Made by a program: the position numbers and the translations under genes
Assembly: GCA_963820825.1 (NCBI GenBank)
Contig: CAWGBN010000006.1
Span: 288,001 to 352,000 of the forward strand
Length of the DNA stretch: 64,000 bases
From: Vulcanimicrobiota bacterium
Lineage (GTDB): Bacteria > Vulcanimicrobiota > Vulcanimicrobiia > Vulcanimicrobiales > Vulcanimicrobiaceae
Reading direction: 5' to 3'
Shown: in pieces, positions 11,067 through 44,248 of the stretch
How positions within the stretch are numbered: the stretch's first letter is position 1
Layout of the letters: each line of letters opens with the position of its first letter
The notes under the pieces: generated by a model
Database searches by the model: none
What the model was told of the DNA's origin: nothing
Seen by the model: only the letters and a program-made list of their open reading frames with translations

Positions 11067-11118
11067 CGTGTCTGTGGTCTCCTCTCGCCGGGAGACCGCA
11101 CGCTGCGAGCTCCCGGAT
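11067..11118 (-). promoter_or_regulatory. Putative translational attenuator (two alternative hairpins) over the receptor RBS
   Basis: Minus strand: CCGGGAG (11116-11110) pairs with CTCCCGG (11094-11088); alternatively GGTCTCC (11097-11091) pairs with GGAGACC (11082-11076), which holds the RBS. Confidence 0.6.
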
Positions 11119-28601: not shown

Positions 28602-30017
28602 ATGAGCCTTTACGAATTCGGCCCATTTCAACTCGATGAGGCGCGCTTGCTCTTGCTCGAGCACGGTACGGCGACGCCGATTGGTCCGAAGGTCGTCGAA
28701 ACGCTCTTAGCCCTGATCGAGCACCCGGGCGAGCTCTTTTCGAAGGCCGACCTGCTCGCCCGCATCTGGCCTGAGGGGTACGTCGACGAAGCGAATCTCG
28801 CGCAGAACGTCTACGTGCTGCGCAAGACCCTCCGCCGGAGTTGGAACCTCGAAGCGATCGAGACGATTCCCCGGCGCGGATACCGCTTTACCGCGCCCGT
28901 TCGGCGCCGTGAGGATCCGCCTCGCCGCGAGCCGGTTCCGGCGGTACCGGCGCCTCCGGTTGCTCCGTCGTTGCGCCGCGGTTCGGCCCTCGCCGCGGTC
29001 TTCGCTCTGGCGCTGCTCGGCGGATCGGCACCGAACCTCTACCGCAGCGCCGCTGCACGGCCTGCCGCCGGCGTCAGCGCCCAGGATACGCGGCTCTATG
29101 CGATGGGCCGATACTATTGGAACCTTCGCTCGCGTGAGGGCATCTCCAAGAGCTTTCAATACTTCTCGCGCGTCCTTTCCAACGATGCGCGCGACGCGCG
29201 CGGATATGCCGGGCTGGCCTCGGCGAATGCAATTACGGCCGATTACGGTTATGGAAGCGCGCCGGCGCAGGTCGAGATCGCGCGCGCTCGCTCGTACGCG
29301 CACAAAGCGCTTGCCATCGATCCCGAGAACGCAGAGGCCTACGCGGTGCTCGGCTTCATCTCGTCGGGGGCGATGAAGAGCGCCGGCGGCGAGCGTCCCG
29401 AAGCACTCGCCGACTTGCGGCGCGCGATTGCGCTCGATCCTTCGAGCGGGACCGCGCACGAATGGTACGGCACCGCGCTCCTACGCCACGGACGGGTCGC
29501 CGAAGCGTACGCGGAACTCACGAAGGCGGCGCAGCTCGACCCGCTCTCGGTCGCAACGGCGTCCTGGCTTGGAACGACGGCCTACTATGAAGGTCACTAT
29601 CGCGACGCAATCGCCTTCGCTCGCGAGACGCTCGACCTCTCGCCGCAGCGAGCCGACGCGTACGAAACGCTGGGCCTTGCCTACGAAGCGCTCGGCGATC
29701 GAACCGACGCGGCCGCGAACTTCCGCCGCCTCGCAACGATCTGTTCCGACTGCAAGGCCGAGTCGGCCGCCCTCCTGAGCGCGCTCTACGCCCGAAGCAA
29801 TCGCATGGCACTCGCCCGCGCCGAGCTGGCGATCGCCCGAGCGAACCTCAACGAGGTGGAGCCTCAGAATCTCGCCCTCGCCCTCGAGGCCGTCGGCGAG
29901 CGCGGCGCGGCCCTGAGCTGGCTGCGGCGCGCCAGGAACATGAGCGGCTACGCCGCCATCGAGATCGCTACCGACCCGCGATTTGCCACCCTACGGCGCG
30001 CCTCGATAAACGGCTGA
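28602..30017 (+). CDS. Transcriptional regulator: CadC/ToxR-type winged helix, TM segment and TPR domain
   Basis: YEFGPF.LD, L.RIWP..V.EANLAQNVYVLRK.L, IETIPRRGYRF, hydrophobic segment, TPR repeats. Confidence 0.88.
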   Translation: MSLYEFGPFQLDEARLLLLEHGTATPIGPKVVETLLALIEHPGELFSKADLLARIWPEGYVDEANLAQNVYVLRKTLRRSWNLEAIETIPRRGYRFTAPVRRREDPPRREPVPAVPAPPVAPSLRRGSALAAVFALALLGGSAPNLYRSAAARPAAGVSAQDTRLYAMGRYYWNLRSREGISKSFQYFSRVLSNDARDARGYAGLASANAITADYGYGSAPAQVEIARARSYAHKALAIDPENAEAYAVLGFISSGAMKSAGGERPEALADLRRAIALDPSSGTAHEWYGTALLRHGRVAEAYAELTKAAQLDPLSVATASWLGTTAYYEGHYRDAIAFARETLDLSPQRADAYETLGLAYEALGDRTDAAANFRRLATICSDCKAESAALLSALYARSNRMALARAELAIARANLNEVEPQNLALALEAVGERGAALSWLRRARNMSGYAAIEIATDPRFATLRRASING

Positions 30018-30260: not shown

Positions 30261-30659
30261 ATGCCGGCCGTCCTAACGGTTGATCCACGCAGCGGCGTGC
30301 CGATCTACCTGCAGATCATCGAGCAGATCAAACGATCGATCGCGCTTGGGATCTTGCAGTCAGGGGAGCAGCTTCCAACCGTGAAACAGCTCGCCGTCGA
30401 CCTCACCGTCAATCCGAACACCGTCGCGCGTGCCTACCGCGATTTGGAGCGCGACCAAGTGATCGAGACCGCTCCCGGACGCGGATCCTTCGTTCGCGCC
30501 GACGGCATTACCGAATCGCCGAAGGTGGCCGCGGAGATCGGCGGTGACGCACTCGACGTAGCGCTGCGCGAAGCAAAATCGGTTGGACTCTCGCGCGCAG
30601 ACGTGCACGAGCTCTTCGAAACCGCGCTGCAACGCTGGTACGGCGACCTTGAGAAGTGA
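30261..30659 (+). CDS. GntR-family (YtrA subfamily) regulator
   Basis: PIYLQI..G.L..GEQLPTVKQLA.DL.VNPNTVARAY..LE..G.GSFV with short C-terminal helices; precedes an ABC ATPase. Confidence 0.93.
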   Translation: MPAVLTVDPRSGVPIYLQIIEQIKRSIALGILQSGEQLPTVKQLAVDLTVNPNTVARAYRDLERDQVIETAPGRGSFVRADGITESPKVAAEIGGDALDVALREAKSVGLSRADVHELFETALQRWYGDLEK

Positions 30660-31577
30660 GTGAGCATGAGTATCACGATTACAAATCTTCGTAAACTCTA
30701 CGGCAGAACCGCGGCCGTCGACGGCCTCACCCTGGAGATACCGGGCGGGAGCGTCTTCGGCTTGCTTGGGCCAAACGGCGCGGGTAAGACGACGACGTTC
30801 AAATGTATGCTCGACATGGCGCGTCAGACGAGCGGTGAGATTCTCTACGATGGAAAGCGGCTAGAACCCGCGACCTTCGAGCGGATCGCGTACGTTCCCG
30901 AGCGCAGCGTGCTCTACGACTGGCTGACCGTCGAGGAGCACGTCGAGATGAACCGCCGGGCGTTTACGAACTTCGAGCCGGCTCGCGCCTTCGAATTGCT
31001 CGCGACCTTCAACATCGACCGCCGAAAGCGCGCGCGAACGCTCTCGAAAGGGATGAGGACCGCCGTGATGGTGGCAACCGCCTTCGCGCGAAACGCCGAG
31101 ATTCTCGTGCTCGACGAGCCGACGGGCGGGCTCGACCCGGTCAACCAGCGTCACGTGCTGAGCCTGATGATCAACGAAGCGGCAAAGGGAAACTCGGTGA
31201 TCTTCTCATCGCACCAAATCGGCCAGGTCGAGCGCGCGGCCGAGCACATCGCGGTCATGGACCGCGGGCGGCTCGTTCTGCAAGGAACCGTCGACGATTT
31301 GAAGGCCGATCGCAAGATCGTCGAAGGCATCTTTCCCGACCTCAACTTTACGCTCGACGGAATCGCGAACGATCCGCACGTCGCGCGCGCCGACCGCACC
31401 GAACGCATCGTCCGGCTGCTGGTTACGAGCTGTGCCGACGAGCTGGCCTCGCGTCTCTCGGCCGCCGGCGCCGTGGGCGTGCGAGTGCTCGACCTCAATC
31501 TCGAAGATATCTTTCTATACGCGGTCTCGCCGGCGACGGCGACCGCGGACGTCGTCGCAAAAGAAAGCTCGTCATGA
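30660..31577 (+). CDS. ABC transporter ATP-binding protein (YtrB-like)
   Basis: GPNGAGKTT, LSKGM, LVLDEPT.GLDP, SSH. Confidence 0.93.
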   Translation: MSMSITITNLRKLYGRTAAVDGLTLEIPGGSVFGLLGPNGAGKTTTFKCMLDMARQTSGEILYDGKRLEPATFERIAYVPERSVLYDWLTVEEHVEMNRRAFTNFEPARAFELLATFNIDRRKRARTLSKGMRTAVMVATAFARNAEILVLDEPTGGLDPVNQRHVLSLMINEAAKGNSVIFSSHQIGQVERAAEHIAVMDRGRLVLQGTVDDLKADRKIVEGIFPDLNFTLDGIANDPHVARADRTERIVRLLVTSCADELASRLSAAGAVGVRVLDLNLEDIFLYAVSPATATADVVAKESSS

Positions 31578-32590
31578 ACTACGTTGAATGGCTGCGCGTT
31601 CGAAACTTGCTCAAGATCGTTGCGATCATTCTAGTCGTCTTGGTCGTCCTCGCCGTGATTCTTCGAATCTCCTTCGCGCGCTACATGTCGCCGGACGCGT
31701 GGGTCGCGCACGTGACGATGGATCCCGGAACGAAGGTCTCCCATACGGTTCTTCCCGACGGTACCAAGCGCACGATCATCGACGATCCCACCGAACAGAC
31801 GCACGTGATCATCGACGATCATGGGTATGCCGGCAAGCACATCGTCGTTACGGAGCCCTCGAGCCGCGCACACTCGGATCATTCGAAGATGAACGTCGGG
31901 AGCATCCACGTGATCGAGTCGAACCACGGCACGATGACCACCACCGTGATCGACACCAACGGCTCGGTTCCGATGATGTACTACATGGCGATCGCCGACG
32001 TGGTCGCGTTGATCGTCGCGACGATCTTGGCCGCGCCGCTGGCGCGCGAGATCGACGGCCACCTCGAAATCGCGCTCACGCGGCCGTGCTCGCGGGTGCG
32101 CTTCGCGCTCGGGGTTCTCGTCGCCGACGTCGCCGGCATCGTCGCGGCTTCCGTGCTGACGATCGTCGCGTTCTACGCCTGTCAACTGCTCTTCGAGTCG
32201 GCGCGGCTCGATTTTAGCGGAATCAACGCGCGGGCCATCGCTATGGGCGTCGCGATGCCGCTGGCGTGGTACGCCATGCTCTGCGCGGCCACGACCTGGC
32301 TCAACCGCTCCTACGGCGCGGTGCTCGGGTTCGCGTGGCCGGTGGCGATTCTCGTCGGCGTCCTCACGCTCGTTCACCCCAGCAACGTGGTGGCGCTCTT
32401 CGTGCACGATATTGCCTGGGTGCTCTCGCGGCTCGACCCGCTGTCGTACGTCTCGTTTGCATCGCCGAACGATAACGGCACCTTCGAGTACGCCAGCTCG
32501 GACTTCGGGCTGCGGTTCTTGGTAGAGATAATGTTCTTCGTCGTCTATGGTGCGCTCGCCATCATCAAGTGGCAGCGCGTGGAGGCCTGA
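31574..32590 (+). CDS. ABC-2-type permease-like membrane protein
   Basis: One N-terminal TM, a large loop, then about 5 TMs with ARE.DG.LE..LTRP.SR; overlaps the ATPase by 4 nt. Confidence 0.78.
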   Translation: MNYVEWLRVRNLLKIVAIILVVLVVLAVILRISFARYMSPDAWVAHVTMDPGTKVSHTVLPDGTKRTIIDDPTEQTHVIIDDHGYAGKHIVVTEPSSRAHSDHSKMNVGSIHVIESNHGTMTTTVIDTNGSVPMMYYMAIADVVALIVATILAAPLAREIDGHLEIALTRPCSRVRFALGVLVADVAGIVAASVLTIVAFYACQLLFESARLDFSGINARAIAMGVAMPLAWYAMLCAATTWLNRSYGAVLGFAWPVAILVGVLTLVHPSNVVALFVHDIAWVLSRLDPLSYVSFASPNDNGTFEYASSDFGLRFLVEIMFFVVYGALAIIKWQRVEA

Positions 32591-32779: not shown

Positions 32780-33961
32780 TTAGTAAACAAAGCCTGTGCG
32801 GACGGCTGGGCGAGCGAACTTGAAGCCGTCGGCGTCGACGGTGTAGAGGTAGATGTTCGGAATCAGCGGATCGCCGCTGATGTTGAAGGCGAACTGACCG
32901 ACGAGCGTCGTGAACGTGCCGCCCGTCTGCAGGGTGCGCAGCAGCGCCTGGCGGGAGGTCGCGTTCCCACGCTGCGACGCCGCGATGATTAGCTGCGCGG
33001 CGGCGTAACCGAAGGCGGATTGCGTCGTGATTTGGCTGACCTCGCGCTCGAAATCGGTGACGAGTTGGACGGCGGTCGGGACGCGATCGAGCGGCGGCAT
33101 CGGCGAGGCGACGTACCCCCCTTTGAGCGTCCTGGCGTAGGTCGAAATCGTCTCGGAATTATAGAATCCATCGGCGGCTCCGAACTCGCCGGTGTAGCCG
33201 AGTACGCGCATCGCGTCGGCAATCGGTCCAAGCTCGGCCGACTTTCCGGCAAGAAAAACGTACCCCGGCGAACGGTCGAGCACGGTCCGCGCGGCTTGCG
33301 CGGGATCGGTCTTTTCGAGCGGAAAGAGCAAGACTTGCGCCGGGTGGCGGTCGTTCTGCGCTTGCGTGACGAAGCCGCTCGCGACGTCGTAGCCGTAATC
33401 GCCGTCAAAGGCGACCGCGATCGCGCTCACCCCGCGTTTGCCCTCGAGTGCGACGGTAGCGAAGAGCCGTCCGGCCGCACTGTCGCGTGCGGGGAGGCGA
33501 TAGATATTGTGATAGCCGCGCTTCGTGACCGAGTCGGCGGTGACGGTCGGACAGATCACCGCAAAACCGACGTTCGCGTAGCGCGAAAGCGCGGCGAGCG
33601 TCATCGGCGCAGTGAGATTACCGACGACTCCGATGCAGTTGAAATCCGCGGCCGCGACGCTGGCGTTCGACGAGGCGACGCCGGGATCGTTGCGGTCGTC
33701 GTACGGGCGTATTCCCCAAGCGTTTGAGAGCAACGTGTTAAAGCGATTCTGCTCGTCGACGGCGGCCTGCACGCCTTTGACGACTTCCTGGCCGTACTTC
33801 TGCAGCGGGCCCGAGAGGGTGACGTTGACCGCGATGTTGATCTGCGGCAGATAGCGCTGTGTCTGGACGGGCGGACCCGGAGCGATCTGCGCGCGCGCCG
33901 GAAGCGCCACGCCGCCGGCGGCGGCCGCTGCGGCGGCCGTAATGAACCGGCGCCGTTTCAC
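32780..33961 (-). CDS. LivJ/LivK-like periplasmic binding protein with Tat signal
   Basis: KRRRFI Tat motif; LSGP..YG..G..AVDE.N, DD..DP, GVVG, DYGY. Confidence 0.82.
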   Translation of the reverse strand: MKRRRFITAAAAAAAGGVALPARAQIAPGPPVQTQRYLPQINIAVNVTLSGPLQKYGQEVVKGVQAAVDEQNRFNTLLSNAWGIRPYDDRNDPGVASSNASVAAADFNCIGVVGNLTAPMTLAALSRYANVGFAVICPTVTADSVTKRGYHNIYRLPARDSAAGRLFATVALEGKRGVSAIAVAFDGDYGYDVASGFVTQAQNDRHPAQVLLFPLEKTDPAQAARTVLDRSPGYVFLAGKSAELGPIADAMRVLGYTGEFGAADGFYNSETISTYARTLKGGYVASPMPPLDRVPTAVQLVTDFEREVSQITTQSAFGYAAAQLIIAASQRGNATSRQALLRTLQTGGTFTTLVGQFAFNISGDPLIPNIYLYTVDADGFKFARPAVRTGFVY

Positions 33962-34806
33962 ACGTATCCGCCGACGGTCGTGATCAGGAAGAAGACCGAA
34001 AACGTCATGTTGGAGATAAAAATGCGCTCGTTGATTACGAAAAGATTGGCCCCGCTTCGGAAGAGATACTCTTCATAGATAATGAGAACCGCGACTGAGA
34101 GCACGCCGAGAAAGTACGGCCGTCCGGCTCCGGCGAGTACCCCCGCGGCTCCCAGGAGCAGGAGCATCGCGCCGTGGAGCACGATCGGTAGAATGCGCCC
34201 GCTCGCTTCGCCGAATCGCACGGGCAAGGAATAGATGCCTTGCGCGCGGTCGACGCCGAGATCCATCAACGCATAGATGATGTCGAATCCCGCGACCCAG
34301 ATCGTTACCGCGGCGAAGAGTAAGATCGCGGGCAGCGTGATCTTGCCCGCAACGCCGATATACGCGCCCAACGGCGCGAGACCGTCGACCGCGCCGAGCA
34401 CGAAGTGGGTCGCCCAAGTGAAGCGCTTGCAGAGCGGATAGATCAACACGAGCAGCGCCGCAATCGGCATGAGCTTCACGCAGAGCGGATTGAGCATCCA
34501 GGCCGAAACGAGCAGCAGCGCGAGGCCCGCAGCGCTCGCCCACAGCATCGTTGCGGGCGAGAGCGCGCCGCTGGCCAAGGCACGGCGAGCGGTTCGCGGA
34601 TTGCGCGCGTCGATCTCGCGGTCGAGAAAACGATTCGCCGCCATTGCCGCGGTCCGCGCGCCGAGAACGGCGAGGGTAATCCAAATCAGCGCGGCGAGCG
34701 AAGGAATGCCGCGGGCCGCCAAGATCGCGCCGACGTAGGCAAAGGGCAATGCGAAGAGCGTGTGCTCGATGCGTATTTCGCGCAGAAAGAGCGCGACGGT
34801 TCTCAC
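33958..34806 (-). CDS. UbiA-family polyprenyltransferase (MqnP-like)
   Basis: IEHTLFALPFA, ARTAAMAANR..DREIDARNPRT..R, WVAGFDIIYA.MD; GTG 34806 overlaps the upstream stop. Confidence 0.9.
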   Translation of the reverse strand: MRTVALFLREIRIEHTLFALPFAYVGAILAARGIPSLAALIWITLAVLGARTAAMAANRFLDREIDARNPRTARRALASGALSPATMLWASAAGLALLLVSAWMLNPLCVKLMPIAALLVLIYPLCKRFTWATHFVLGAVDGLAPLGAYIGVAGKITLPAILLFAAVTIWVAGFDIIYALMDLGVDRAQGIYSLPVRFGEASGRILPIVLHGAMLLLLGAAGVLAGAGRPYFLGVLSVAVLIIYEEYLFRSGANLFVINERIFISNMTFSVFFLITTVGGYV

Positions 34807-36335
34807 CGGAGCGACTCGTCGCGGGTGCGCACGAGCCGCTCGTACGATTGCGCGCCCTGACCGGACCAATCGTCGGGCTGTAACGCCTTCGTTATTGCAT
34901 CGAGACCGTAGGCCGTCCAACGTTCGCTTACCAGGCGGCGCGTTGCGTCGTCGGCGACCATCTCCGGCGGCCACCGGCGGGTGTAGCCCTCGGATGCATC
35001 CTTACGGGTCGCGTCGATGCCGATCTTCGTTCCGTATGCGACGCTGTAGGAGCCGTGGTCGAGATCGTCGACCGGTCCCGGCATCGTCACGACGTCGCGC
35101 TCGGGCGCTAAGTTGTTGAGAACGAACCACGCGACCGCACGCGGATCTTGGACGTCCACATCGGCATCGACCACGACCAGGACGCGCGTGAGCATCATCA
35201 TATGGCCGAGCCCCCAGAGGGCGTTCATCACTTTCTTGGCTTGGCCCGGATAGGACTTTCGAATCGAGACGATCGCGAGGTTGTGGAAGCCGCCTTCGAC
35301 GGGAAGATTCATGTCGACGACCTCGGGAAGCATCGCCTGCAGAATCGGAAGAAAGATTCGTTCGGTGGCCTTGCCCAGCCACGCGTCCTCCATCGGCGGT
35401 TTGCCGACGACCGTCGCCGCATACACCGGATTGCGGCGGTGCGTGATGCACGTGACGTGAAAGGTCGGATAGCGATCGGCCGGACTGTAGACGCCGGTAT
35501 GGTCGCCGAACGGACCTTCGACCCGAAGATCTTCGTTGTCGACGTAGCCTTCCAACACGAACTCGGCTTCGGCAGGTACGAGCAGATCGACGCTTTTGGC
35601 GCGCACGAGTTCGACGGGTTTGCCGCGCAGGAGACCGGCGAAGGCAAACTCGTCGAGCATCGGCGGAAGCGGTGCCGTTGCAGCATAGGTGAGCGCGGGT
35701 TCGGTCCCGATCGCGACCGCGACGGGAATCCGTGCGCCCGCGGCCTCGGCGTGCGCCCTGCCCTGTTTGTGACGCTGCCAGTGCATGCCCGTCTCCTGTG
35801 CGTTGAAGACCTGCATCCGGTACATGCCGACGTTGAACCGTCGGCTCTTGGGATCTTTGGTGATGACGAGCGGAAGCGTGATGAATGGACCGGCGTCGAG
35901 CGGCCAGGTCGTCAAGACGGGAAGTTTCGTAAGGTCGGCCGGCGCCATCACGACCTCTTGAACGCTTCCCTCGCGCAGGATCTTCGGAATTGCGTTGGCG
36001 AGCGGCGCGAGCCGCAGCGCACCTCGCAGCTTTCCGACGAACGATCCGCCCGGCGGCGCGATATCGACGAGCTTGCGTACGCGTGCGCCGACTTCGTCGA
36101 GCGTCGTCGCATCGAGGGCCATCGCCATCCGCCGGTGCGTCCCGAACTGATTCGTCAGCACCGGAAAGCTCGAGCCTTTCACGTTGGAGAAGAGCAGGGC
36201 CGGTCCCCCGGCTTTCACGACGCGGTCGGTGATCGCGCCGATCTCCAGCCGCGGATCGACGCTCGCGACGACGACGTGAAGCTCGCCGGCACGCCGCAAA
36301 GCGGCGACGAACTCACCCAAGGACGCAAAAGGCAT
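34803..36335 (-). CDS. UbiD-family decarboxylase (menaquinone biosynthesis, MqnL-like)
   Basis: GGPALLF, WPLDAGPFITLP, NVGMYRMQ, EGPFGDHTG, VGKPPMED, K.YPGQA.K. Confidence 0.92.
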   Translation of the reverse strand: MPFASLGEFVAALRRAGELHVVVASVDPRLEIGAITDRVVKAGGPALLFSNVKGSSFPVLTNQFGTHRRMAMALDATTLDEVGARVRKLVDIAPPGGSFVGKLRGALRLAPLANAIPKILREGSVQEVVMAPADLTKLPVLTTWPLDAGPFITLPLVITKDPKSRRFNVGMYRMQVFNAQETGMHWQRHKQGRAHAEAAGARIPVAVAIGTEPALTYAATAPLPPMLDEFAFAGLLRGKPVELVRAKSVDLLVPAEAEFVLEGYVDNEDLRVEGPFGDHTGVYSPADRYPTFHVTCITHRRNPVYAATVVGKPPMEDAWLGKATERIFLPILQAMLPEVVDMNLPVEGGFHNLAIVSIRKSYPGQAKKVMNALWGLGHMMMLTRVLVVVDADVDVQDPRAVAWFVLNNLAPERDVVTMPGPVDDLDHGSYSVAYGTKIGIDATRKDASEGYTRRWPPEMVADDATRRLVSERWTAYGLDAITKALQPDDWSGQGAQSYERLVRTRDESLR

Positions 36336-36364: not shown

Positions 36365-37315
36365 TTACTCTTTGTGAGCGGGAATTGCCGCGACGAAGCG
36401 CGCGCCGCCCGACGGAGCCTCGGCGACCGAGACCGCGCCGTCGTGCGCGCGCGCGATCCAGCTCACGATTGCCAGCCCAAGACCCGTACCGTTGCCGTCG
36501 TCCGAGCGCCGGTAGAAGCGCTCGAAGATCCGCTGGCGCTCTTGCGTGGGAATGCCCTCGCCGTCGTCGTCGACGACGATCTCGCAGAGATCGCCGTTGC
36601 GGCGCGAGGCGATCGCGACGCTCCCGCGCGCGTGACGAATTGCGTTGTCGAGTAAATTCCGCGCGAGTTCGCGCAGGCGACGCTCGTCACCGTCGACGAT
36701 CGCGCTGGCCGGGGAGCTTTCGAGCCGTATGCCGCGCGCGGTCGCAATCGGCTGCGTCTCGCTCGACGAATCGGCGACGACGGCTCCAAGGTCCACCGGC
36801 TCGCACTGCAACGCGCGACGCGCGGGATCGCGCGCGAGCGTCAGCAAGTCGGTGACGACCGCCGATGCTTCGAACGCGCTGCGTGCGATCGCTTCGAAGG
36901 CGGCGCGCGTCTCCTCCGGCGGCCGCATGCGCGCGGCCTGCGCGAGCGCCGCAATCGCGGCCAGCGGGGAACGCAGCTCGTGGGCTGCATCCGCGGCGAA
37001 GATGCGTTCGCGCTCGCGGGCCGCTTCGATCGGTGCGATCGCCGTCCGGGCCAGTACGTACGAAGCGACGGCGACGATCGCGACGATCGGAAGATCGAGC
37101 GCAGCGAGCGTAAGGGCGACGCGTCGCATCGCCGCGCTCAGCGCCTGCGAGCCTTCGGGTGTGCCGAGAGCCGGACCGAGCAGCGAGGTATACTCGCGCG
37201 CCATGAACGCGTAGGCTCCGGCATTGAGCGCCAGGAGCACGCAGACGAAGACGGCGAGATAGAGTAACGCTACCCGAAGAATCAACCGGTCTTTAGGCGG
37301 TATCCGATACCCCAT
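36365..37315 (-). CDS. Sensor histidine kinase
   Basis: Two TM segments, H box FAADAAHELRSPL, N box NLLDNAIRH, DDGEGI, FERFYR, GTGLGLAI. Confidence 0.93.
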   Translation of the reverse strand: MGYRIPPKDRLILRVALLYLAVFVCVLLALNAGAYAFMAREYTSLLGPALGTPEGSQALSAAMRRVALTLAALDLPIVAIVAVASYVLARTAIAPIEAARERERIFAADAAHELRSPLAAIAALAQAARMRPPEETRAAFEAIARSAFEASAVVTDLLTLARDPARRALQCEPVDLGAVVADSSSETQPIATARGIRLESSPASAIVDGDERRLRELARNLLDNAIRHARGSVAIASRRNGDLCEIVVDDDGEGIPTQERQRIFERFYRRSDDGNGTGLGLAIVSWIARAHDGAVSVAEAPSGGARFVAAIPAHKE

Positions 37316-37953
37316 ACCGTTTCGATGACACCGCTCGCTCCCAGCGCCTTGAGCTTTCGTCGAAGCTGGCTGACGTAGACGTCGACGATATTGCTGGAGC
37401 CCTCGAAATCGTAATCCCAAATGCGCTCGACGATTTGCGTGCGCGAGAGCGCGATTCCGGCGTTACGCGCGAGAAACTCCAAGAGGCGAAACTCGGTCGC
37501 GCCGAGCACGACCGGCCGCCCTTCGTATGCGACGGTGCGCGCGCCGAGATCGACGCGAAGTCCTCCGGCCTCGACCACGCCGAGCATCGGCCGGTCCCCG
37601 CGGCGCAGAATCGCTCCGATACGCGCGACCAGCTCCTCTTCGACGAACGGCTTGACGAGATAATCGTCGGCGCCGCATTCGAGACCCGCGACCCGATCTT
37701 CGACGGCGTCCCGAGCGGTGAGCATAAGGATGGGCGTCTGAACGCCCTCGGCGCGGGCACTGCGCGCCAGCGAGAAGCCGTCCATGCCGGGCAGTCCGAC
37801 GTCGATCACGGCTGCGTCGTAACACCGGCGCAGGAGGTGGTCGAGTCCGGAGGCGCCGTCGGTCACGACGTTCGCCGCATATTTGCGGGCTTCGAGCATC
37901 GTCCGGATCGACTCGGCGACCGGAACGTTATCTTCGACGACCAGAACTCTCAT
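37282..37953 (-). CDS. OmpR-family response regulator
   Basis: VVEDN, IDVGLPGMDG, LTARD, GADDYLVKPF, wHTH SNIVDVYVSQLRRKL..IETVWGIGY. Confidence 0.95.
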   Translation of the reverse strand: MRVLVVEDNVPVAESIRTMLEARKYAANVVTDGASGLDHLLRRCYDAAVIDVGLPGMDGFSLARSARAEGVQTPILMLTARDAVEDRVAGLECGADDYLVKPFVEEELVARIGAILRRGDRPMLGVVEAGGLRVDLGARTVAYEGRPVVLGATEFRLLEFLARNAGIALSRTQIVERIWDYDFEGSSNIVDVYVSQLRRKLKALGASGVIETVWGIGYRLKTG

Positions 37954-37963
37954 ACGAATCGAC

Positions 37964-39094
37964 CTAGTTCTTCAACGGGCCCGGGAAAGCTACTGTCAGC
38001 GCGGCGCTAAAGTACGGGTGCTGGCCGGGCTGCTGCACCTCTTGGGCGAGCACCCGGAACGGCGCGATCTGCACCGCCGCGTAGTAGACGAAGTCGCGGT
38101 TGATGAACGGATTGGCGAAGGCGTCGTAGCGAAGGCCAAAGTATGCGTGCGGGATTGGATAGTACTTCAGCCGCACGTATCCGCCCGACGAGTGCTGATT
38201 GGTCAGGAAGCCGTCCGCGTCGTGATCGTCGCCGTACCATTGTTCGGCTTGGAGATCGAGGTTGCCGTAGCTGGCGTGCCCGAGCAGGCCGTACCGCTCG
38301 TAGAGGTCGGCGAACGGAAGGCGTCCGGTGGGAAGAACGCCGAGCGTTCCTCCGAGCGCGGTCGCGCCGAGATCGACTTCGGCGCTTCTTTTCTGGTAGA
38401 GCGTGTCGCGAAGCCAGATGCTCATCTCGGGACTCTTCATCCAGGTCGACTCACCGGTCGGCACCGGCTTGCCGCCGTAGGCGGAGCCGGCGTAGAAGCC
38501 CATGTCGACGACGCCGTCTACTCGGAAGTTTCCGAAAGTCCGTTCCGCCATCACGCCCCAGCGCGGCGACGAAAGCGGAAGGTTGTTTAGACCGACGTGC
38601 GCGCCGTAGTAGCCGTACTGCTCCAGATCGTCGAGTCGTTGTCCCGGCGACTGCGCGAGCGGAAGCTCGAAGAGCCCACCGCGGAAGAGCGTCTGCGTGT
38701 GCTCGTTGTATCCGGCAGCGAAGATCAGATAGGTCGCAGCCGGTCCTCCGCCCGATCCGAAATTATAGTGCAGGTAAGCGGTGATTGGGCCGATGTTGCC
38801 GCTGCCCAGCAGAATGCCTCCCTGAGAGTACCGCGGACTACCCGGCGCGGGCTGCTTATCGTATTCCAGTTGATACCGGATCGCAAAGATCGTCGTGCCG
38901 TGCTCGGGCAGCGGTAGACGATAACCGTGCGAACGGAAGTAGTTTCCAAACGCGTTGAGCTCCGGCAGCACGCTGTGGCACTGACCGCACTTAAAATGGT
39001 AGCGTTGGGCGAAAATCGGAATTGCCTGCGCCGGCGCGTTCGCCAGCGCGACGAAGAGCAGCGCAAAGCCTGCGGCAGCGAGCTTACTGCGCAA
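37964..39094 (-). CDS. Cyc2-like monoheme cytochrome c-porin fusion (putative outer membrane)
   Basis: Signal peptide, then AIPIFAQRYHFKCGQCHSVLPELNAFGNYFRSHGY (CxxCH in a P.FA..C..CH..P.L..FG..F..GY context), then about 310 aa of aromatic, amphipathic beta strands. TTG 39094. Confidence 0.72.
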   Translation of the reverse strand: MRSKLAAAGFALLFVALANAPAQAIPIFAQRYHFKCGQCHSVLPELNAFGNYFRSHGYRLPLPEHGTTIFAIRYQLEYDKQPAPGSPRYSQGGILLGSGNIGPITAYLHYNFGSGGGPAATYLIFAAGYNEHTQTLFRGGLFELPLAQSPGQRLDDLEQYGYYGAHVGLNNLPLSSPRWGVMAERTFGNFRVDGVVDMGFYAGSAYGGKPVPTGESTWMKSPEMSIWLRDTLYQKRSAEVDLGATALGGTLGVLPTGRLPFADLYERYGLLGHASYGNLDLQAEQWYGDDHDADGFLTNQHSSGGYVRLKYYPIPHAYFGLRYDAFANPFINRDFVYYAAVQIAPFRVLAQEVQQPGQHPYFSAALTVAFPGPLKN

Positions 39095-39536
39095 CGATCG
39101 CCGCTCGCATAGGCGCGCCGTAGTGGAAGAAGCAGCCGAAGAGATAGGTGCCCGGCCGATCGGCCGTGATCGTCTGTGAGGATGCGTTCGGCTGGAGCGC
39201 GCCGCTGCTGAACCCGCCGGAAAGGTTGCTGCCGTGCTGCTGCAACGCACCCGAATTAAACGGCGAGCCGCTCGGGAAGGTGCCGGCACCGGGAATCAGC
39301 GTCGCCGTGTGCGCGAACGTGTCGACGTTGACGAAATGAATTTGCGTACCTACCGAGACGGTGGTCACCGGCGGCGAGAAGCCTCCGCTCTGTCCGTACG
39401 GCGTCTGCGATGGCGCGAACTGGGTTAGGCTGACGTCGATGGTGACGCCGCCGCTTCCGCCGGACGACGACGGAATTCCGCCGGCCGTGCATGCCGCGAG
39501 CGCGAGTGCTGCGACCGCGGCAAAACGGCGTATCAT
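39084..39536 (-). CDS. Cupredoxin (plastocyanin/azurin-like) lipoprotein
   Basis: Lipobox LAAC; FSP..V.VG..I.F.N.D..HT and PGTYLFGCFFHYGAPM give type 1 Cu ligands H, C, H, M. Confidence 0.85.
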   Translation of the reverse strand: MIRRFAAVAALALAACTAGGIPSSSGGSGGVTIDVSLTQFAPSQTPYGQSGGFSPPVTTVSVGTQIHFVNVDTFAHTATLIPGAGTFPSGSPFNSGALQQHGSNLSGGFSSGALQPNASSQTITADRPGTYLFGCFFHYGAPMRAAIVAQ

Positions 39537-40627
39537 TGCGACGCTACCCGATGCTGCTGGCGCACCGCGTCGAGGATCGCGTCGCCGAGTGCGCTCGATG
39601 CCAGCATCGTCTGCGCCAACGTGCCGTCGCCATTCATGACGTAAACGAAGGTCGTGTGCTCGTCGCGGTACCCGCGCTTCCCCTCGATGGAGAGAACGCC
39701 GAACTCGTGCATGACGGCCTCGACGTTGCGAACCGATCCGCCGGCGAGCAGCCAATACCGAGGATTGGCGTCGAAACGCGTTGCGAGCTCGCGCATCGTG
39801 CGCGGCGAGTCGTGCTCGGGATCGAGGGTGATGGTGAGCAATCGTGCGTGGAGATGCGCGTGCGCAATCCTGCGAGCGGCGTCGGCGAACTGGCCGTTGA
39901 TGAGCGGGCAGGCGTCGGTGCAGTGGGCCGATACGAAGGTGATGACGAGCGGCTCGCCGCGTAGTGAGGCGAGCGTAAACTCGCGACCGCGCTGATCGAC
40001 CAGATGCGTCCGCTGCGCCGGCTCCGGTGCTTTCGCTGTGGAACGCCGTTTGGCGTATCCGCCCGGTCCCGGCGACGCCGTCGGTCCGGGTGAAGCGCTC
40101 GCCGAGACCTCGATGATATCGCGCATGGCGTTTGAGACGTAGTGGACCGCACAGCCGATCAAATAAATTCCCGGCTTTGAAAGCGTGACGGTTACCGATG
40201 CGCCGGGATTGAGAAGTCCGCTCGCGTAGCCGCTTCCGAGGATGCCGTTTCCGGTCGGAGAGAATCCGAGACTGGGACTAACCGGCCACTGCGGCGGGGG
40301 TCCGTTCGTCTTCGCAATTACGTTGAGCGTATGAGAGTCGGCTTTTGAAAGATTCACGATCGTGAGCTTAGCGCCGGGGGCGAAGGCGAGAACTTGCGAG
40401 GTCTTCTCTTGCGTGAAGCCGCTCACCGTTCCCCAAACTGGATCGTTCTCGACGCCGATCTTTCCAGTCGGTATCCCCAGACCGATCGCCGACGCCGAGG
40501 GCAGCGGCGAAGGCGAACCGCCGCCTCCGCCGCCACCAATACTGCCCAAACCGCCGCCGTTCGTGCATGCCGTAACGGCCGCGATTGCAAGCGCGCCGAG
40601 CCAAAATGCCGGGCTGCGAAGGTTCAT
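39533..40627 (-). CDS. Cupredoxin-SCO1/SenC fusion lipoprotein
   Basis: Lipobox VTAC; cupredoxin SHTLN..GIYLIGCAVHYVSNAM; then SCO domain LVDQRG, CTDACP, ITLDPEHD.P, DEHTT. Confidence 0.85.
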   Translation of the reverse strand: MNLRSPAFWLGALAIAAVTACTNGGGLGSIGGGGGGGSPSPLPSASAIGLGIPTGKIGVENDPVWGTVSGFTQEKTSQVLAFAPGAKLTIVNLSKADSHTLNVIAKTNGPPPQWPVSPSLGFSPTGNGILGSGYASGLLNPGASVTVTLSKPGIYLIGCAVHYVSNAMRDIIEVSASASPGPTASPGPGGYAKRRSTAKAPEPAQRTHLVDQRGREFTLASLRGEPLVITFVSAHCTDACPLINGQFADAARRIAHAHLHARLLTITLDPEHDSPRTMRELATRFDANPRYWLLAGGSVRNVEAVMHEFGVLSIEGKRGYRDEHTTFVYVMNGDGTLAQTMLASSALGDAILDAVRQQHRVASQ

Positions 40628-41214
40628 TGAGGCGGTTTGGTCGCCTGCGGTCCGGGTGTCGCACCCGGCTCGACAACAATGACGTCTTGCATACCTGAGT
40701 GGTAGTGGAAGGCGCAGCCGAAGAGATAGATGCCGGCCTTCTTGGCAACCACGGTGACCGACGATCCCGGATTGATCGAGCCGCTTCTATAGCCGTTCTT
40801 CAGCGGCCCTCCCGATGGTGTCGTCGGGAGCGACGGACTGCTCGGGAAGTTCGCGGGCGGTCCTTTGATCTTCGCGACGACGTTGAACGTGTGGTGAATG
40901 CTCTTCGAAATGTTCTTGATCGTGAGCTTGGTGTTGGGCGGAAAGCCCAGTGCCTGCGAGAATTGTCGTTGCGTGAAACCGCCCAGCGTCGCTTGCCAGG
41001 TCGGATCTTTAATCGTGCCGAGGCCTTCCGCGGGAAGCTCCTCCATTACCGTACCCTTTTTTCTGTCGGGAAGGACGTAGCTGAGTTGCAAGTCGGGCAT
41101 GTTCGGCAGCGCGTACGTGCCGCTATTCGCACCGGTGCTGCCGGAGTTGCCCGCGCATGCTGCAAGTGCCGCGGCCGCAAGCGTCACCGCCATTGCCGCG
41201 AGTTTTTTAGCCAT
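40624..41214 (-). CDS. Cupredoxin lipoprotein
   Basis: GGAGG RBS; lipobox LAAC; HHTFN..GIYLFGCAFHYHSGM; closely similar to the N-terminal domain of the next gene. Confidence 0.85.
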   Translation of the reverse strand: MAKKLAAMAVTLAAAALAACAGNSGSTGANSGTYALPNMPDLQLSYVLPDRKKGTVMEELPAEGLGTIKDPTWQATLGGFTQRQFSQALGFPPNTKLTIKNISKSIHHTFNVVAKIKGPPANFPSSPSLPTTPSGGPLKNGYRSGSINPGSSVTVVAKKAGIYLFGCAFHYHSGMQDVIVVEPGATPGPQATKPPQ

Positions 41215-41245
41215 ATAACCTCCAGAGAGTGTAGGAATGTGCCTT

Positions 41246-41278
41246 AGGCTAGCGGTCGAGGATGAAGAAAGTCTAAAG
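41246..41278 (-). promoter_or_regulatory. OmpR-type direct-repeat box and -10
   Basis: Minus strand CTTTAG-N5-CTTCAT (41278-41262), 10 nt, TAGCCT. Confidence 0.55.
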
Positions 41279-41280
41279 CA

Positions 41281-42117
41281 CTACGGGGGTTTGATCGAGT
41301 CGCGCATCGCTGCCGCGATATTCTGCAGCGCCGGATCGCCCGCCGCATCGATCGTCGCTCGAGCGAACTCATTGCGGGCGGACGCGTGGTCCCCCTCTCG
41401 CAAGAGGACGACGCCCAGGGCAAACCGAGCGCGCGCATACGCGGGCGCGAGCGAGAGCGCGATGCGCAGTTCGCGTTCGGCCGCTTGATAGCGATCCAAG
41501 CGTTCTTCGGCGAGCGCGAGATCGTAATGCGCGACCGCGTACGACGGATTCGCGTGCAGCAGCTTGCCGAAATCCTCACGAGCGGTCGCGGCGTCGCCGC
41601 CTTGGAGCGCGACGATTCCCCGCGAATAGAGCGCTCGTGCCGCGTCCGGTGCGAGCGTGACGTATCGATTGGCCATGCGGCGCGCCTCGGCGAGATCGCC
41701 GCGCGCGAGGTCGATGGAGACGAGATTGGCCATCGCGGCTAGGAAGCCCGGATCGAGCGCGAGCGCGCTGCGCAGCTCGCGCGCCGCATCGTCGTAACGC
41801 TTTAGGTTCGCATACGCGATTGCGAGGTCGTACTGCGCCGTCGAGCCTTGCGGCTCGGCCGGATGGAGCGCGAGGATTCGCTCGAACTCAAGAGCCGCGT
41901 TCGTCCAGTCGCCGCGCGTCTCCGCGTCGATACCGAGCGTGAAGCGCTCTTCGATTTCGCGCCGAATCGCGAGCGCCTGCAACTGCGGTAGCGAAGTCGT
42001 TCTCGGTGCGGGACTCTGCGTTGAGTAGCTCTGCCCTTGGAGCGCCCCCAAGGCGGGCGCCACTCCGAACGTCGCCTCGACTTGGATAAGAAGGGCGGCG
42101 AGCAGCAGAACCCGCAT
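41281..42117 (-). CDS. Exported TPR-repeat protein
   Basis: Signal-like N-terminus; repeats AQYDLAIAY, ALYSRG, AHYDLALA, ARFALG. Confidence 0.85.
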   Translation of the reverse strand: MRVLLLAALLIQVEATFGVAPALGALQGQSYSTQSPAPRTTSLPQLQALAIRREIEERFTLGIDAETRGDWTNAALEFERILALHPAEPQGSTAQYDLAIAYANLKRYDDAARELRSALALDPGFLAAMANLVSIDLARGDLAEARRMANRYVTLAPDAARALYSRGIVALQGGDAATAREDFGKLLHANPSYAVAHYDLALAEERLDRYQAAERELRIALSLAPAYARARFALGVVLLREGDHASARNEFARATIDAAGDPALQNIAAAMRDSIKPP

Positions 42118-42120
42118 CGT

Positions 42121-42375
42121 TCACTGCGTGCCGTCGGAAGGCAGTTCGGCGTCGTGCCAAGAGCCGGCCGCGGCTGCGCGCTCGGGTTTGCACTCCCAAC
42201 CGACCCGCCCCGCGGCGGTAATCGGTCCGAGGAGTCCCGGCGCGGCCGACGGACTGAGCGCCCCGGAGAGCAGGTCTTCCACAGAGGCGGCGCTTGCTAC
42301 GGCAAAATGGCCGCAGAGAAACGCGCCGGCGAGAAGACCGGCTGCAAGCAGGCGCTGGAGATAGGTTCTTGACAC
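42121..42375 (-). CDS. Small exported hypothetical protein
   Basis: Signal-peptide-like N-terminus; ends 3 nt before the TPR gene; promoter-like elements immediately upstream. Confidence 0.55.
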   Translation of the reverse strand: MSRTYLQRLLAAGLLAGAFLCGHFAVASAASVEDLLSGALSPSAAPGLLGPITAAGRVGWECKPERAAAAGSWHDAELPSDGTQ

Positions 42376-42383
42376 TTCCTTCC

Positions 42384-42415
42384 ATCATAGCCGAAAGTCT
42401 AAAGAATCCGTGAAG
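42384..42415 (-). promoter_or_regulatory. OmpR-type direct-repeat box and -10
   Basis: Minus strand CTTCAC-N5-CTTTAG (42415-42399), 9 nt, TATGAT; shares GAAAGTCTAAAG with 41267-41278. Confidence 0.55.
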
Positions 42416-44248
42416 CTCGGGCTCGGCGCCGGGATGCTGCTCTCGATTCTGCTCGCGGCAGCGCCGGCGCGCGCCCAAACCCCGCTCGTCGTCGGGTCGG
42501 TGCGGGACCAGCACGGGGCGGCGGTCGATGGGGCCACCGTCGTGGCCCAGACGGCGGCGGGTGTCGGCCCGGCCGCGACGACCGATGCCGCCGGTACCTT
42601 CGCGCTCCATGGCTCGGGGATCGTCTCGGTCCGGATCGGTTGCCGCTACTGCCTCGGATCGGAGGTGGCGGTCAAGCCGGGCGAGCCGGTCGTCGCGATC
42701 GTCCGCCGCTACGACGCGCTGCTGAGCGAAGCACCCTCGCCGGCCGACCTGGCGAGCCTCCCCTACGCCCACGTAGAGTCCTCGGTCGCCCTCCATCCCT
42801 TCACGCTCCTCTCTCAAACGAGCACGCCCTATCCCGGCTCGCTGTTGAGCGATCGCGGTCTCTCGTCGAGCGGCGCGCTGCTCATCGACAACGGCGCCCC
42901 GAACTACGACATCGTCGCCGGCGAATCGCCGTACGCGCTCATCCCCGCGTATTACGAACAGGGCGCGGCGCTGCACGACGCGACGCTCGCGTACGCATAC
43001 GGCGATCAAGCGGCCGGCGGCGTCGTGATGCTCGATCCGTTCGTCGCCGGGTCGAGCGCGGAGGTCGCGACGATCGGCAGCGAGGCGATCGCTCGCGCGC
43101 AAGTCGGATCGGACGCATCGTCGATATCGGTCGGTACGTTCAGCAACGACGAGGAGTCGCGTCAGCGAGGCGACCTTACCGCGAGCTGGCCGTTGGGAGC
43201 GGACCAGTCGTTCACCGTCTCCGGAGGCAGCGAGCAAGGCCGCAACTACGAATCGCCGGCGTCCTCGTTTGCCGGCAGCTTCTCATTTGCCGATGCCGGC
43301 TTCAGCGATCCGCGCGCGCTCAACCTCTCGCTCTCCGCCGTGATGGATCGTGGCAGTTACGTCGCGAGCAGCTACCAATGGCCGACATCGACCGGCTGGT
43401 CCGATTCCGGTTTCGATGCGAGCATCCATACCAACGGACCCGTCGTCGCATTTGCCGACGCCGCGACTCGTTCGTCGAGCGGTTTCTACGACGCGCAATC
43501 GTTTGGGCTCGAGCGAGTCGGCGCGACGCTCGATCAGACGCGCATCGATGCGGGCCTCGTCGCGAGCGGAAGTGCGTACGCGGTGACGGCGGGAGTCGGC
43601 GCCTTCTGGTTCGACTATGCGGGTGGTACCTACGGCATATCGCAGCCGGCACGTGCGGCGCTCGCGGTACCGTCGCTCGATGCGAAGCTCTTTCCAAACG
43701 GCAAGTGGAGCTTGGACCTTCAAGGCAGCGGGTCGTTCACGCTGCCGACCTTCATCGAGCAGTATCTCTATGCCGAGGCCCGGCCGACGCCGGTGCAGCT
43801 CTCGCGCAACGCACTCCAAGCGGCAATTCTCAGCTATACCGACGGCGCGCGCGTGCGTTTCGAATTCGAAGCGGCCACCGAAAACGTGAGCGGCAGCGCG
43901 AGCGGAAGAATTTCGTCGGCCGGTCTTTCGGCGATATGGCAGATCGCGCCGGCGATTTCGCTGCGGACGTGGACGATGCACGTCACCGACTCCGCGCCGC
44001 TCTACGGCGCGGTTCTTCCCTACGGACCCGCGCCGACGGTGAACGCGATTTGGTTGACCTACGACACGGGGAGCGCGATTCGCGCCGACGTGCTATACCG
44101 CCGCGATCTGCTCGATGCGCTTCCGTTCTATCACTTCGACGGTGCGATCTCCGGTCCGATCGGCGATCGCTTGCGATGGTACGCCGGCGCCGAGGACCGG
44201 ATGCGCCGCACGTTCCTCGACGCCGGCCTTCGTTTCTCCGCGCGCTAG
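42410..44248 (+). CDS. TonB-dependent-receptor-like outer membrane protein with carboxypeptidase-regulatory-like N-domain
   Basis: Signal peptide, VGSVRDQHG..V.GA.V..TDAAGTF, plug-like DRG..LLIDNG.P..YG..AAGGVV, beta-strand C-terminus DAGLRF. Confidence 0.7.
   Translation: MKLGLGAGMLLSILLAAAPARAQTPLVVGSVRDQHGAAVDGATVVAQTAAGVGPAATTDAAGTFALHGSGIVSVRIGCRYCLGSEVAVKPGEPVVAIVRRYDALLSEAPSPADLASLPYAHVESSVALHPFTLLSQTSTPYPGSLLSDRGLSSSGALLIDNGAPNYDIVAGESPYALIPAYYEQGAALHDATLAYAYGDQAAGGVVMLDPFVAGSSAEVATIGSEAIARAQVGSDASSISVGTFSNDEESRQRGDLTASWPLGADQSFTVSGGSEQGRNYESPASSFAGSFSFADAGFSDPRALNLSLSAVMDRGSYVASSYQWPTSTGWSDSGFDASIHTNGPVVAFADAATRSSSGFYDAQSFGLERVGATLDQTRIDAGLVASGSAYAVTAGVGAFWFDYAGGTYGISQPARAALAVPSLDAKLFPNGKWSLDLQGSGSFTLPTFIEQYLYAEARPTPVQLSRNALQAAILSYTDGARVRFEFEAATENVSGSASGRISSAGLSAIWQIAPAISLRTWTMHVTDSAPLYGAVLPYGPAPTVNAIWLTYDTGSAIRADVLYRRDLLDALPFYHFDGAISGPIGDRLRWYAGAEDRMRRTFLDAGLRFSAR

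What the first reader, a model, noticed from the sequence alone, without database searches (positions are those of the whole stretch)
36365..42415. Candidate copper-protein extracellular electron-transfer system: Cyc2-like cytochrome-porin, three cupredoxin domains, SCO, TPR and its own two-component system
Seen: tightly packed or overlapping minus-strand genes encode a small exported protein, a TPR protein, a cupredoxin, a cupredoxin-SCO fusion, another cupredoxin, a CxxCH/beta-barrel fusion, a response regulator and a kinase. All three cupredoxin domains keep H-C-H-M ligands, and each cupredoxin protein has a lipobox. Established: Cyc2 is a monoheme cytochrome-porin fusion with an N-terminal P.FAR..CxxCH..P.L..G..F..GY pattern, and in Acidithiobacillus it works with the blue copper protein rusticyanin in Fe(II) oxidation; SCO proteins load copper. 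Inference: an outer-membrane conduit coupled to lipid-anchored blue copper proteins rather than periplasmic cytochromes. I do not recognise this architecture as described. A metal-stress or uptake role is the alternative.
Basis: partly seen in the sequence, partly recalled or inferred. Interest (0 to 1): 0.9.

Follow-up and report, generated by a model that had tools for sequence, protein, structure and literature searches.

The report
Copper-wired haem porin and its regulon
A widespread group of soil bacteria (Eremiobacterota) carries an outer-membrane haem pore resembling the iron-oxidising protein Cyc2, paired with a membrane-anchored blue copper protein and apparently switched on together with other electron carriers, which suggests an untested route for taking electrons from dissolved substances outside the cell.

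Summary
Observation confirmed. The genome's closest named relatives are Ca. Cybelea (Eremiobacterota). The 376-aa protein has one invariant CxxCH and models as a 16-strand porin. It fails the strict Cyc2 motif (0 of 76; FAQRY/FAERY instead), so I call it Cyc2-like, not Cyc2. Its clade follows host taxonomy and occurs in 138 of 193 class genomes. A lipobox cupredoxin sits directly upstream in 76 of 80 loci. The cupredoxin-SCO fusion is real but mainly genus-specific.

New here: an OmpR-type direct repeat precedes the operon twice. It also marks two unlinked cupredoxins and an Iro-like HiPIP; in two relatives that HiPIP sits in a box-HiPIP-cupredoxin-porin operon. A divergent TonB-dependent receptor starts inside the box. 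Ccs haem maturation and a caa3 oxidase are present but carry no box.

Best reading (0.5): a regulated haem-to-copper conduit for a small dissolved reductant. Fe(II) is only one candidate. Copper or redox homeostasis is the main rival (0.25).

Cyc2-like genes in this phylum are already published, and this scan has found Cyc2-plus-cupredoxin operons on other DNA. I found no paper on this operon or regulon.

The parts
37964..39094 (-). Cyc2-like monohaem cytochrome fused to a 16-strand porin (376 aa; AIPIFAQRY...C36-x-x-C39-H40...P44-E-L46)
   Evidence: 16 strands, mean pLDDT 62.6, haem region under 50; Z 20.7 OmpT, 19.9 OprP
39084..39536 (-). cupC: lipoprotein type-1 cupredoxin, the constant partner gene of the porin
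   Evidence: PF00127 24.2 bits, cut-off 21.2; plastocyanin and pseudoazurin nearest; weak complex support
39533..40627 (-). cupB-SCO: lipoprotein cupredoxin fused to a SCO1/SenC copper chaperone
   Evidence: one ORF in 20 of 80 loci: 19 same genus plus L080
40624..41214 (-). cupA: lipoprotein cupredoxin, paralogue of the cupB domain
41246..41279 (-). P2: direct-repeat box (TTTAG-N6-TTCAT) plus -10-like hexamer, upstream of cupA
   Evidence: (41 of 62 loci; control 21 of 2400 windows)
41281..42117 (-). exported TPR protein that travels with the two-component system
42121..42375 (-). small exported protein (84 aa) with invariant W-x-C-x-P; no family; candidate accessory of the kinase (inferred)
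   Evidence: (W60, C62, P64 in 63 of 63)
42384..42416 (-). P1: direct-repeat box (TTCAC-N6-TTTAG) plus TATGAT; overlaps the start codon of the divergent receptor
   Evidence: (57 of 62 loci)
37282..37953 (-). OmpR-family response regulator
   Evidence: best NCBIfam hits RppA and heavy-metal RR, all below cut-off
36365..37285 (-). histidine kinase with two predicted membrane helices, a loop of about 25 aa, and no conserved Cys or sensor-region His
42410..44248 (+). divergent TonB-dependent-receptor-like protein (N-terminal CarboxypepD_reg domain with CxxC, plug, 22-strand barrel); substrate unknown
   Evidence: 58 of 80 loci; pLDDT 90.7

Best explanation
A regulated one-electron conduit across the outer membrane. 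A small dissolved reductant enters the porin and reduces the haem on the periplasmic side; Fe(II) is the best-known candidate, and Cu(I), Mn(II) or organic quinols are not excluded. The haem reduces lipid-anchored cupC. Further carriers (cupA, cupB, the unlinked cupredoxins, an Iro-like HiPIP) pass electrons on, most likely to the caa3 oxidase. SCO loads copper. The response regulator activates the set through the direct-repeat box.
Shown: anatomy, conservation, synteny, the box and its distribution, presence of Ccs and the oxidases.
Inferred: haem and copper loading, haem-cupC contact, direction of flow, that this regulator binds the box, the acceptor, the substrate and the inducing signal.
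For: Barrel model and porin fold matches. CxxCH and PxL invariant. cupC directly upstream in 76 of 80 loci, and the pair stands alone in the most distant family. Complex prediction gave weak support: 0.40 against a best control of 0.10; the mark was reached by 116 of 157 solved and 2 of 215 mismatched pairs, but at 0.60 or under by only 18 solved and both mismatches; the runs agree in 0% of contacts; partner pLDDT at least 90. Box sites in own genome: 16 at score 19.5 or more, against 1 read backwards and 0-2 in 8 shuffled matrices. They include two extra cupredoxins and a Tat HiPIP (PF01355 over cut-off; NF041615 Iro 44.9 bits, below its cut-off of 100). Box-HiPIP-cupC-porin operons in L310 and L316. 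A paralogous clade also pairs with a cupredoxin, a tri-haem cytochrome c or a COX1 gene. ResB, CcsA and a caa3 oxidase are present.
Against: Strict Cyc2 motif met in 0 of 76 (81), and the clade is separate from the motif-bearing rows (96, quick tree). Keffer et al. call the function of divergent homologues uncertain. No oxidase, Rieske, resB or tested cytochrome c gene carries the box. No RuBisCO was found in the own genome (85% complete). The regulon also holds non-redox-looking exported proteins: three NHL-like lipoproteins, Lipoprotein_15, and two unknowns. The regulator module occurs without this porin in 5 of 19 ortholog-lacking genomes tested. Only 5 of 30 HiPIP loci carry the box, all among the six closest. 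The haem domain of the model is low-confidence.
Confidence: 0.5

Rival explanations
1. Periplasmic copper or redox homeostasis. The regulon is a metal-stress or envelope response: cupredoxins bind or oxidise Cu(I), SCO handles copper, and the haem porin acts as an electron sink or source for them. No energy is conserved.
For: The best NCBIfam hits of the regulator and kinase are RppA/RppB and heavy-metal pairs, below cut-off. Five cupredoxins plus SCO lie under one box. Oxidases are not boxed. No P1B heavy-metal ATPase scored over cut-off in the own genome (several partial, possibly frameshifted hits). CopI-type cupredoxins in copper tolerance are known (PMC13308877, search listing only). The likeness of the box to the cyanobacterial CopR repeat is recalled, not verified (139 not held).
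Against: The kinase has no conserved Cys and no His in its sensor region; one Met is in 46 of 61 rows. No efflux gene was recognised among the boxed genes. The cupredoxins lack His/Met-rich extensions. A HiPIP needs iron, not copper.
Confidence: 0.25
2. Redox-assisted uptake. The haem porin and cupredoxins change the oxidation state of a metal or ligand, which the divergent TonB-dependent receptor or another transporter then imports.
For: The receptor is adjacent in 58 of 80 loci and folds as a TonB-dependent receptor. TonB_C domains are present. Its start codon lies in box P1.
Against: The receptor is missing from all 18 f2 and f3 loci, which keep the core, and stays with the regulator in genomes that lack the porin. 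No FTR1 permease was found in the own genome. The fold search does not single out OprC. Overlap with the box fits repression as well as activation.
Confidence: 0.12
3. A sensing device. Haem porin and cupC report the outside redox or metal state to the kinase through the small Cys protein and the TPR protein.
For: The kinase has almost no periplasmic domain (118). Small protein, TPR, regulator and kinase co-occur through rearrangements (62-63 of 80 loci). The small protein has one invariant Cys (69).
Against: The regulator module is unlinked from the core in f3 (125) and can occur without the porin. Several high-copy carriers and a HiPIP look like outputs, not a sensor.
Confidence: 0.1

Closest known systems
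Cyc2 fused cytochrome-porins (A. ferrooxidans Cyc2, M. ferrooxydans Cyc2PV-1, G. bivora Cyc2TAG1_1, Leptospirillum Cyt572)
   Same: Signal peptide, one CxxCH, PxL four residues downstream, 16-strand OprP-like barrel, length over 365 aa (PMC8406198 passages).
   Different: FAQRY/FAERY in place of FAR[Q/K][T/Y]; own clade found only in one class among the genomes searched; cluster placement and activity untested.
Acidithiobacillus rus operon (cyc2-cyc1-cup-coxBACD-rus)
   Same: A haem porin encoded with more than one single-domain cupredoxin (PMC10654088 passages).
   Different: No Cyc1 or oxidase in the operon. The cupredoxins are lipoproteins nearest to plastocyanin and pseudoazurin; rusticyanin is not among the 60 of 71 PDB hits shown. 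SCO, TPR, a two-component system and a receptor are linked.
HiPIP-using Fe(II) oxidation chains (Ferrovum HiPIP-41, Rhodopseudomonas PioC, Acidithiobacillus Iro)
   Same: A HiPIP as carrier downstream of an outer-membrane cytochrome (PMC10879576 and PMC13741234 passages). Here an Iro-like HiPIP shares the box and is in the operon in 2 of 87 loci.
   Different: The HiPIP is below the Iro cut-off, usually unlinked, and boxed only in a subset of genera.
Cyc2-like genes reported in Eremiobacterota MAGs
   Same: Same phylum; Fe(II) oxidation proposed (PMC8357290, PMC13594681 passages).
   Different: The passages I saw give no gene context. I could not tell which of the three or more paralogous clades those papers counted.

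Membership tests
Cyc2 (Keffer et al. 2021) | Single CxxCH near the N-terminus | tested here: met
   C36, C39, H40 in 76 of 76 rows
Cyc2 (Keffer et al. 2021) | Signal peptide | tested here: met
   By inspection only: hydrophobic stretch ending A-Q-A24; A22 and A24 nearly invariant. No SignalP run.
Cyc2 (Keffer et al. 2021) | 16-strand OprO/OprP-like barrel | tested here: met
   16 strands after residue 66; Z 19.9, rmsd 3.4, 280 aligned to OprP 2o4v, tied with OmpT Z 20.7
Cyc2 (Keffer et al. 2021) | PxL four residues after CxxCH; length 365 aa or more | tested here: met
   P44 and L46 invariant; 376 aa
Cyc2 (Keffer et al. 2021) | AxPxFAR[Q/K][T/Y] motif | tested here: not met
   0 of 76 match PxFAR[QK][TY]; FAQRY 62, FAERY 13, other 1
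Cyc2 (Keffer et al. 2021) | FeGenie cluster 1-3 HMM score or placement among reference sequences | not testable with these tools
   No reference Cyc2 sequence or FeGenie HMM was available; Pfam, NCBIfam and PDB sequence searches gave no Cyc2 family
Cyc2 (Keffer et al. 2021) | Haem binding and Fe(II) oxidation | not testable with these tools
   Needs biochemistry
rus operon | Cyc1 and coxBACD co-encoded with cyc2 | tested here: not met
   Neither is in the window's cluster; the oxidases lie elsewhere and are unboxed
Mtr/Mto/Pio porin-multihaem conduits | Decahaem cytochrome in a 26-strand porin | tested here: not met
   One CxxCH and 16 strands; at most 2 CxxCH in any filtered ORF of the own genome
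Type-1 cupredoxins | His...Cys-His-Met ligand set and family match | tested here: met
   Ligands conserved in all three; cupC over the PF00127 cut-off, cupA and cupB below it; cupA and cupB were not folded
SCO1/SenC | CxxxC plus distal His; PF02630 | tested here: met
   71.3 bits; 56 of 57 rows
TonB-dependent receptors | Plug plus 22-strand barrel | tested here: met
   Model pLDDT 90.7; Foldseek PqqU, BtuB, FecA, OprC at E 1e-16 to 1e-14; Plug in 19 of 51 members
OprC copper receptor | Specific likeness to OprC over other receptors | tested here: inconclusive
   OprC ranks 12th, with TM-scores like the others
Heavy-metal two-component systems (CusRS/CopRS, RppAB) | NCBIfam cut-off for regulator or kinase | tested here: not met
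   RppA 193.7 of 250; TIGR01387 185.5 of 279.2; RppB 160.2 of 400

The most novel reading that the evidence does not exclude
Most Eremiobacterota of this class have carried, since their common ancestor, an inducible Fe(II)-oxidising chain (haem porin, lipid-anchored cupredoxins, HiPIP, caa3 oxidase) that supplements heterotrophy. This would make them overlooked soil iron oxidisers, using a porin clade that fails the published Cyc2 motif filter.
Probability: 0.25. Interest if true: 0.85.

Novelty: new variant of a known kind. Interest (0 to 1): 0.6.

Why it matters
Most divergent Cyc2-like proteins have no known partner, substrate or regulator, yet they are used as markers of iron oxidation. 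This system supplies all three leads in one lineage: a fixed partner (cupC), a regulator with a definable DNA box, and co-regulated carriers. The box gives a direct experiment: find the signal that induces it, and the function follows. It also warns against counting every Cyc2-like hit in this phylum as one thing, since at least three paralogous clades have different neighbours.

Tried and rejected
1. Fusion as a local frameshift artefact: rejected.
2. Placing the protein in Cyc2 clusters 1-3: not possible. No reference sequences were obtained; name look-up of 10 distant hits gave only 'hypothetical' or nothing; the tree in the PMC8357290 supplement was not readable for MAG 15 from the passages returned.
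3. Form I CO dehydrogenase as a regulon member: the box upstream of the coxM-like gene is in 1 of 13 loci, the own genome only (141-143); rejected.
4. Oxidases, Rieske, resB, Cyc2 paralogues and the second HiPIP as regulon members: best scores 8.1 or lower.
5. Co-occurrence with caa3 as a test: uninformative, CoxB matches in 79 of 81 genomes.
6. Expression: no RNA holder was listed; this is no evidence either way.
7. ARAGORN tRNA-Gln at 40607-40677 overlaps coding DNA and is not called in 10 of 10 orthologous loci; likely false.
8. LolA (PF03548) not found in 31 genomes searched. This leaves inner-membrane anchoring plausible but unproven.
9. Atlas search of the small protein gave only sub-threshold leads.
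10. The tree is the quick version; the careful search did not finish.
11. One script failed and one timed out; both were rerun.
12. Literature searches listed no paper on this operon or box. PMC8397712 and PMC3425214 were not held. Subscription papers and unseen supplements may describe it.
Full report
Identity. Named close homologues of the porin are Ca. Cybelea and Eremiobacterota proteins. The window is G000:C6:288001-352000, in a genome 85% complete.

Observation. Eight minus-strand genes run from 42375 to 36365 with gaps of -11 to +66 bases: small protein, TPR, cupA, cupB-SCO, cupC, cytochrome-porin, regulator, kinase. All three cupredoxin domains keep His-Cys-His-Met and a lipobox Cys, conserved across relatives. 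Only cupC passes Pfam's cut-off; its nearest solved relatives by sequence are plastocyanins and pseudoazurins. The SCO fusion is one ORF in 20 of 80 loci, 19 from the same genus plus L080. Elsewhere SCO is a separate gene. Fusion fits SCO loading these cupredoxins (inference).

The porin. AlphaFold2 gives 16 strands (mean pLDDT 62.6; haem region under 50). The fold matches classical porins: OmpT Z 20.7 and OprP Z 19.9. Keffer et al. (PMC8406198, passages) define Cyc2 by a signal peptide, one CxxCH, a 16-strand OprP-like barrel, PxL and AxPxFAR[Q/K][T/Y]. All hold except the last: 0 of 76 aligned orthologues match it (FAQRY 62, FAERY 13). I therefore do not file it as Cyc2, though it is built like one. 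In a quick tree of 72 selected rows, the 22 orthologues form one branch (SH-aLRT 100) that splits by host family, which fits vertical descent. No reference Cyc2 was in the tree. H65 (69 of 76) and H316 (74 of 76) are distal-ligand candidates (inference).

Distribution. Counting by hand the genomes with best E under 1e-30: 53 of 54 in the genus, 122 of 172 in the family, 2 of 3 and 14 of 18 in the two other families. That is 138 of 193 in the class. None of the 57 other phylum genomes reaches that level; 6 have weak hits. These tallies include genomes flagged unpublished (G048, G059, G245, G253, G255, G267); no other claim rests on them.

Synteny. I chose 80 loci from 79 genomes among the ortholog hits. 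cupC is directly upstream in 76 of 80 by script. Of the four misses, two are contig edges (L063, L067), one is a script artefact (L093) and one is real (L101). Regulator and kinase are in 63, small protein and TPR in 62, the divergent receptor in 58, SCO in 56, cupA/B in 40. In family f3 only cupC-porin remains, with a kinase-TPR pair elsewhere (9 of 9 loci fetched). A GTDB scan with the cupC pattern gave 198 relatives; the 80 kept are nearly all labelled as this phylum. Kin are not independent, so these counts show conservation, not function.

Complex. Porin plus haem plus cupC: weak support, 0.40 against a best control of 0.10, with runs of 0.40, 0.09 and 0.55, 0% contact agreement and partner pLDDT at least 90. 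At 0.60 or under only 18 of 157 solved complexes and both passing mismatches (2 of 215) scored, so this adds little.

A regulon. A direct repeat with an 11-base period, followed by a TAnnnT hexamer, precedes the small gene in 57 of 62 loci and follows the TPR gene in 41 of 62; random windows match in 21 of 2400. That layout is typical of OmpR-family activators (established knowledge); binding by this regulator is inferred. A matrix trained on relatives finds 16 sites at 19.5 or more in the own genome, against 1 when read backwards and 0-2 with 8 shuffled matrices. Ten precede identifiable exported proteins: P1, P2, a pair of cupA-type cupredoxins (C8:465691-466952), a Tat HiPIP (C8:2308-2589), three NHL-like lipoproteins, a Lipoprotein_15 protein and two unknowns. 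Six do not: three have no clear gene, two look like chance, and the site before the CO dehydrogenase genes is not conserved (1 of 13). Independent support: G022 has the box before its HiPIP and NHL-like genes, and G241 before an extra cupredoxin. Lipoprotein_15 carries the box in 16 of 26 loci, some of which are the operon's own P2, and lies in or near the cluster in 13 of 87 loci. In L310 and L316 the order is box, HiPIP, cupC, porin. Against: only 5 of 30 HiPIP loci are boxed. The f3 cupC upstream sites score -0.6 to 19.3, with 4 of 12 at 18 or more. The looser pattern was near control level in three of five distant genomes.

The divergent gene (42410-44248) folds as a TonB-dependent receptor and starts inside box P1. 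Its substrate is unknown. It stays with the regulator, not with the porin.

Host context. ResB and CcsA lie beside a Rieske/cytochrome b pair; CcmE was not found. There is a caa3 oxidase and a second, probably ba3-type oxidase (type assigned by inspection). None is boxed. RuBisCO, FTR1 and LolA were not found with these queries. Two further Cyc2-like paralogues exist in the genome. In relatives one clade pairs with YceI, another with a different cupredoxin, a tri-haem cytochrome c or a COX1 gene, and one locus with a multicopper oxidase (20 loci).

Mechanism. The best reading (0.5) is a regulated conduit from a dissolved reductant through haem to cupC and other high-potential carriers, ending at oxygen. 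Fe(II) specifically gets about 0.25. Rivals are copper or redox homeostasis (0.25), redox-assisted uptake (0.12) and sensing (0.1).

What is known. Cyc2-like genes in Eremiobacterota MAGs are reported (PMC8357290, passages and supplement search; PMC13594681, passages). The isolate paper has no occurrence of 'cyc2' (PMC9758169, term search). Cyc2 with cupredoxins is the rus operon (PMC10654088, passages), and HiPIP carriers are known (PMC10879576 and PMC13741234, passages). Cluster definitions: PMC7029218, passages. Measured Cyc2 potentials range from -130 to about 700 mV (PMC13692758, abstract and sections 13 and 18), so flow direction cannot be read from homology. PMC4890671 (passages) says only that the copM promoter has two direct repeats. 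Nine searches listed no description of this operon or box. Earlier notes of this scan report Cyc2-plus-cupredoxin operons in other genomes; none matched this sequence, region or genome.

Verdict. A real, conserved system and a new variant of the Cyc2-cupredoxin kind. Its added value is the definable regulon. Interest 0.6.

Noticed in passing
window 40607-40677 (+): ARAGORN calls a tRNA-Gln over the cupA/cupB junction; not called in 10 orthologous loci, so probably false.
   Followed up: yes
G000:C8:about 499000-502100 (L224, L329): Form I CO dehydrogenase genes (AYRCSFR motif; label recalled), frameshifted in this assembly; strong DNA matches in 12 of 40 genus genomes. Its upstream box is not conserved.
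   Followed up: partly
G000:C2:246703-248977 and L203, L208, L210, L213-L216: Second Cyc2-like clade (PNFAQAYG/PPFAQAYG) beside a Cupredoxin_1 protein, a tri-haem cytochrome c, or a COX1 gene and a two-component pair. It may be the better respiratory candidate; it is frameshifted in G000.
   Followed up: partly
G000:C2:283425-285085; L199-L201, L205, L206, L211: Third Cyc2-like clade (PLFAHQYG) repeatedly followed by a YceI gene.
   Followed up: partly
L197:1518-4151: Cyc2-like gene directly followed by a lipoprotein-like multicopper oxidase.
   Followed up: no
P0213 (581 aa): Cyc2-like porin with three CxxCH, apparently fused to extra cytochrome c domains.
   Followed up: no
G000:C7:113277-114398, C8:3974-5122, C2:390615-391751: Three paralogous NHL-like lipoproteins of about 375 aa with no family over cut-off, each preceded by the box; also boxed in G022.
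   Followed up: partly
G000:C6:366952-372450: Cytochrome b-cytochrome c fusion, Rieske, ccsA and resB in one run, with tatA/tatC-like reading frames overlapping its end (tat labels by inspection).
   Followed up: partly
L310, L316: The box-HiPIP-cupC-porin operon lies just downstream of a catalase-peroxidase-like gene (label recalled) in both genomes.
   Followed up: no
window 4116-6929, 14551-18024, 28602-30017: Three large signalling regulators: AAA_16-LuxR, BTAD-AAA_16 and Trans_reg_C-TPR.
   Followed up: no
window 8316-11540 (-): 1074-aa protein with a CarboxypepD_reg domain, probably another outer-membrane receptor.
   Followed up: no
window 23465-24754 (-): Peptidase M56 protein that also carries a TonB_C match.
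   Followed up: no
window 33958-36335 (-): UbiD- and UbiA-like genes (labels by inspection) follow the kinase by 29 bases in this genus but separate from the cluster in other genera.
   Followed up: partly
window 30261-32590 (+); L054, L056: A GntR-like regulator plus ABC transporter set lies near the cluster here and directly after the porin in some f3 genomes.
   Followed up: no
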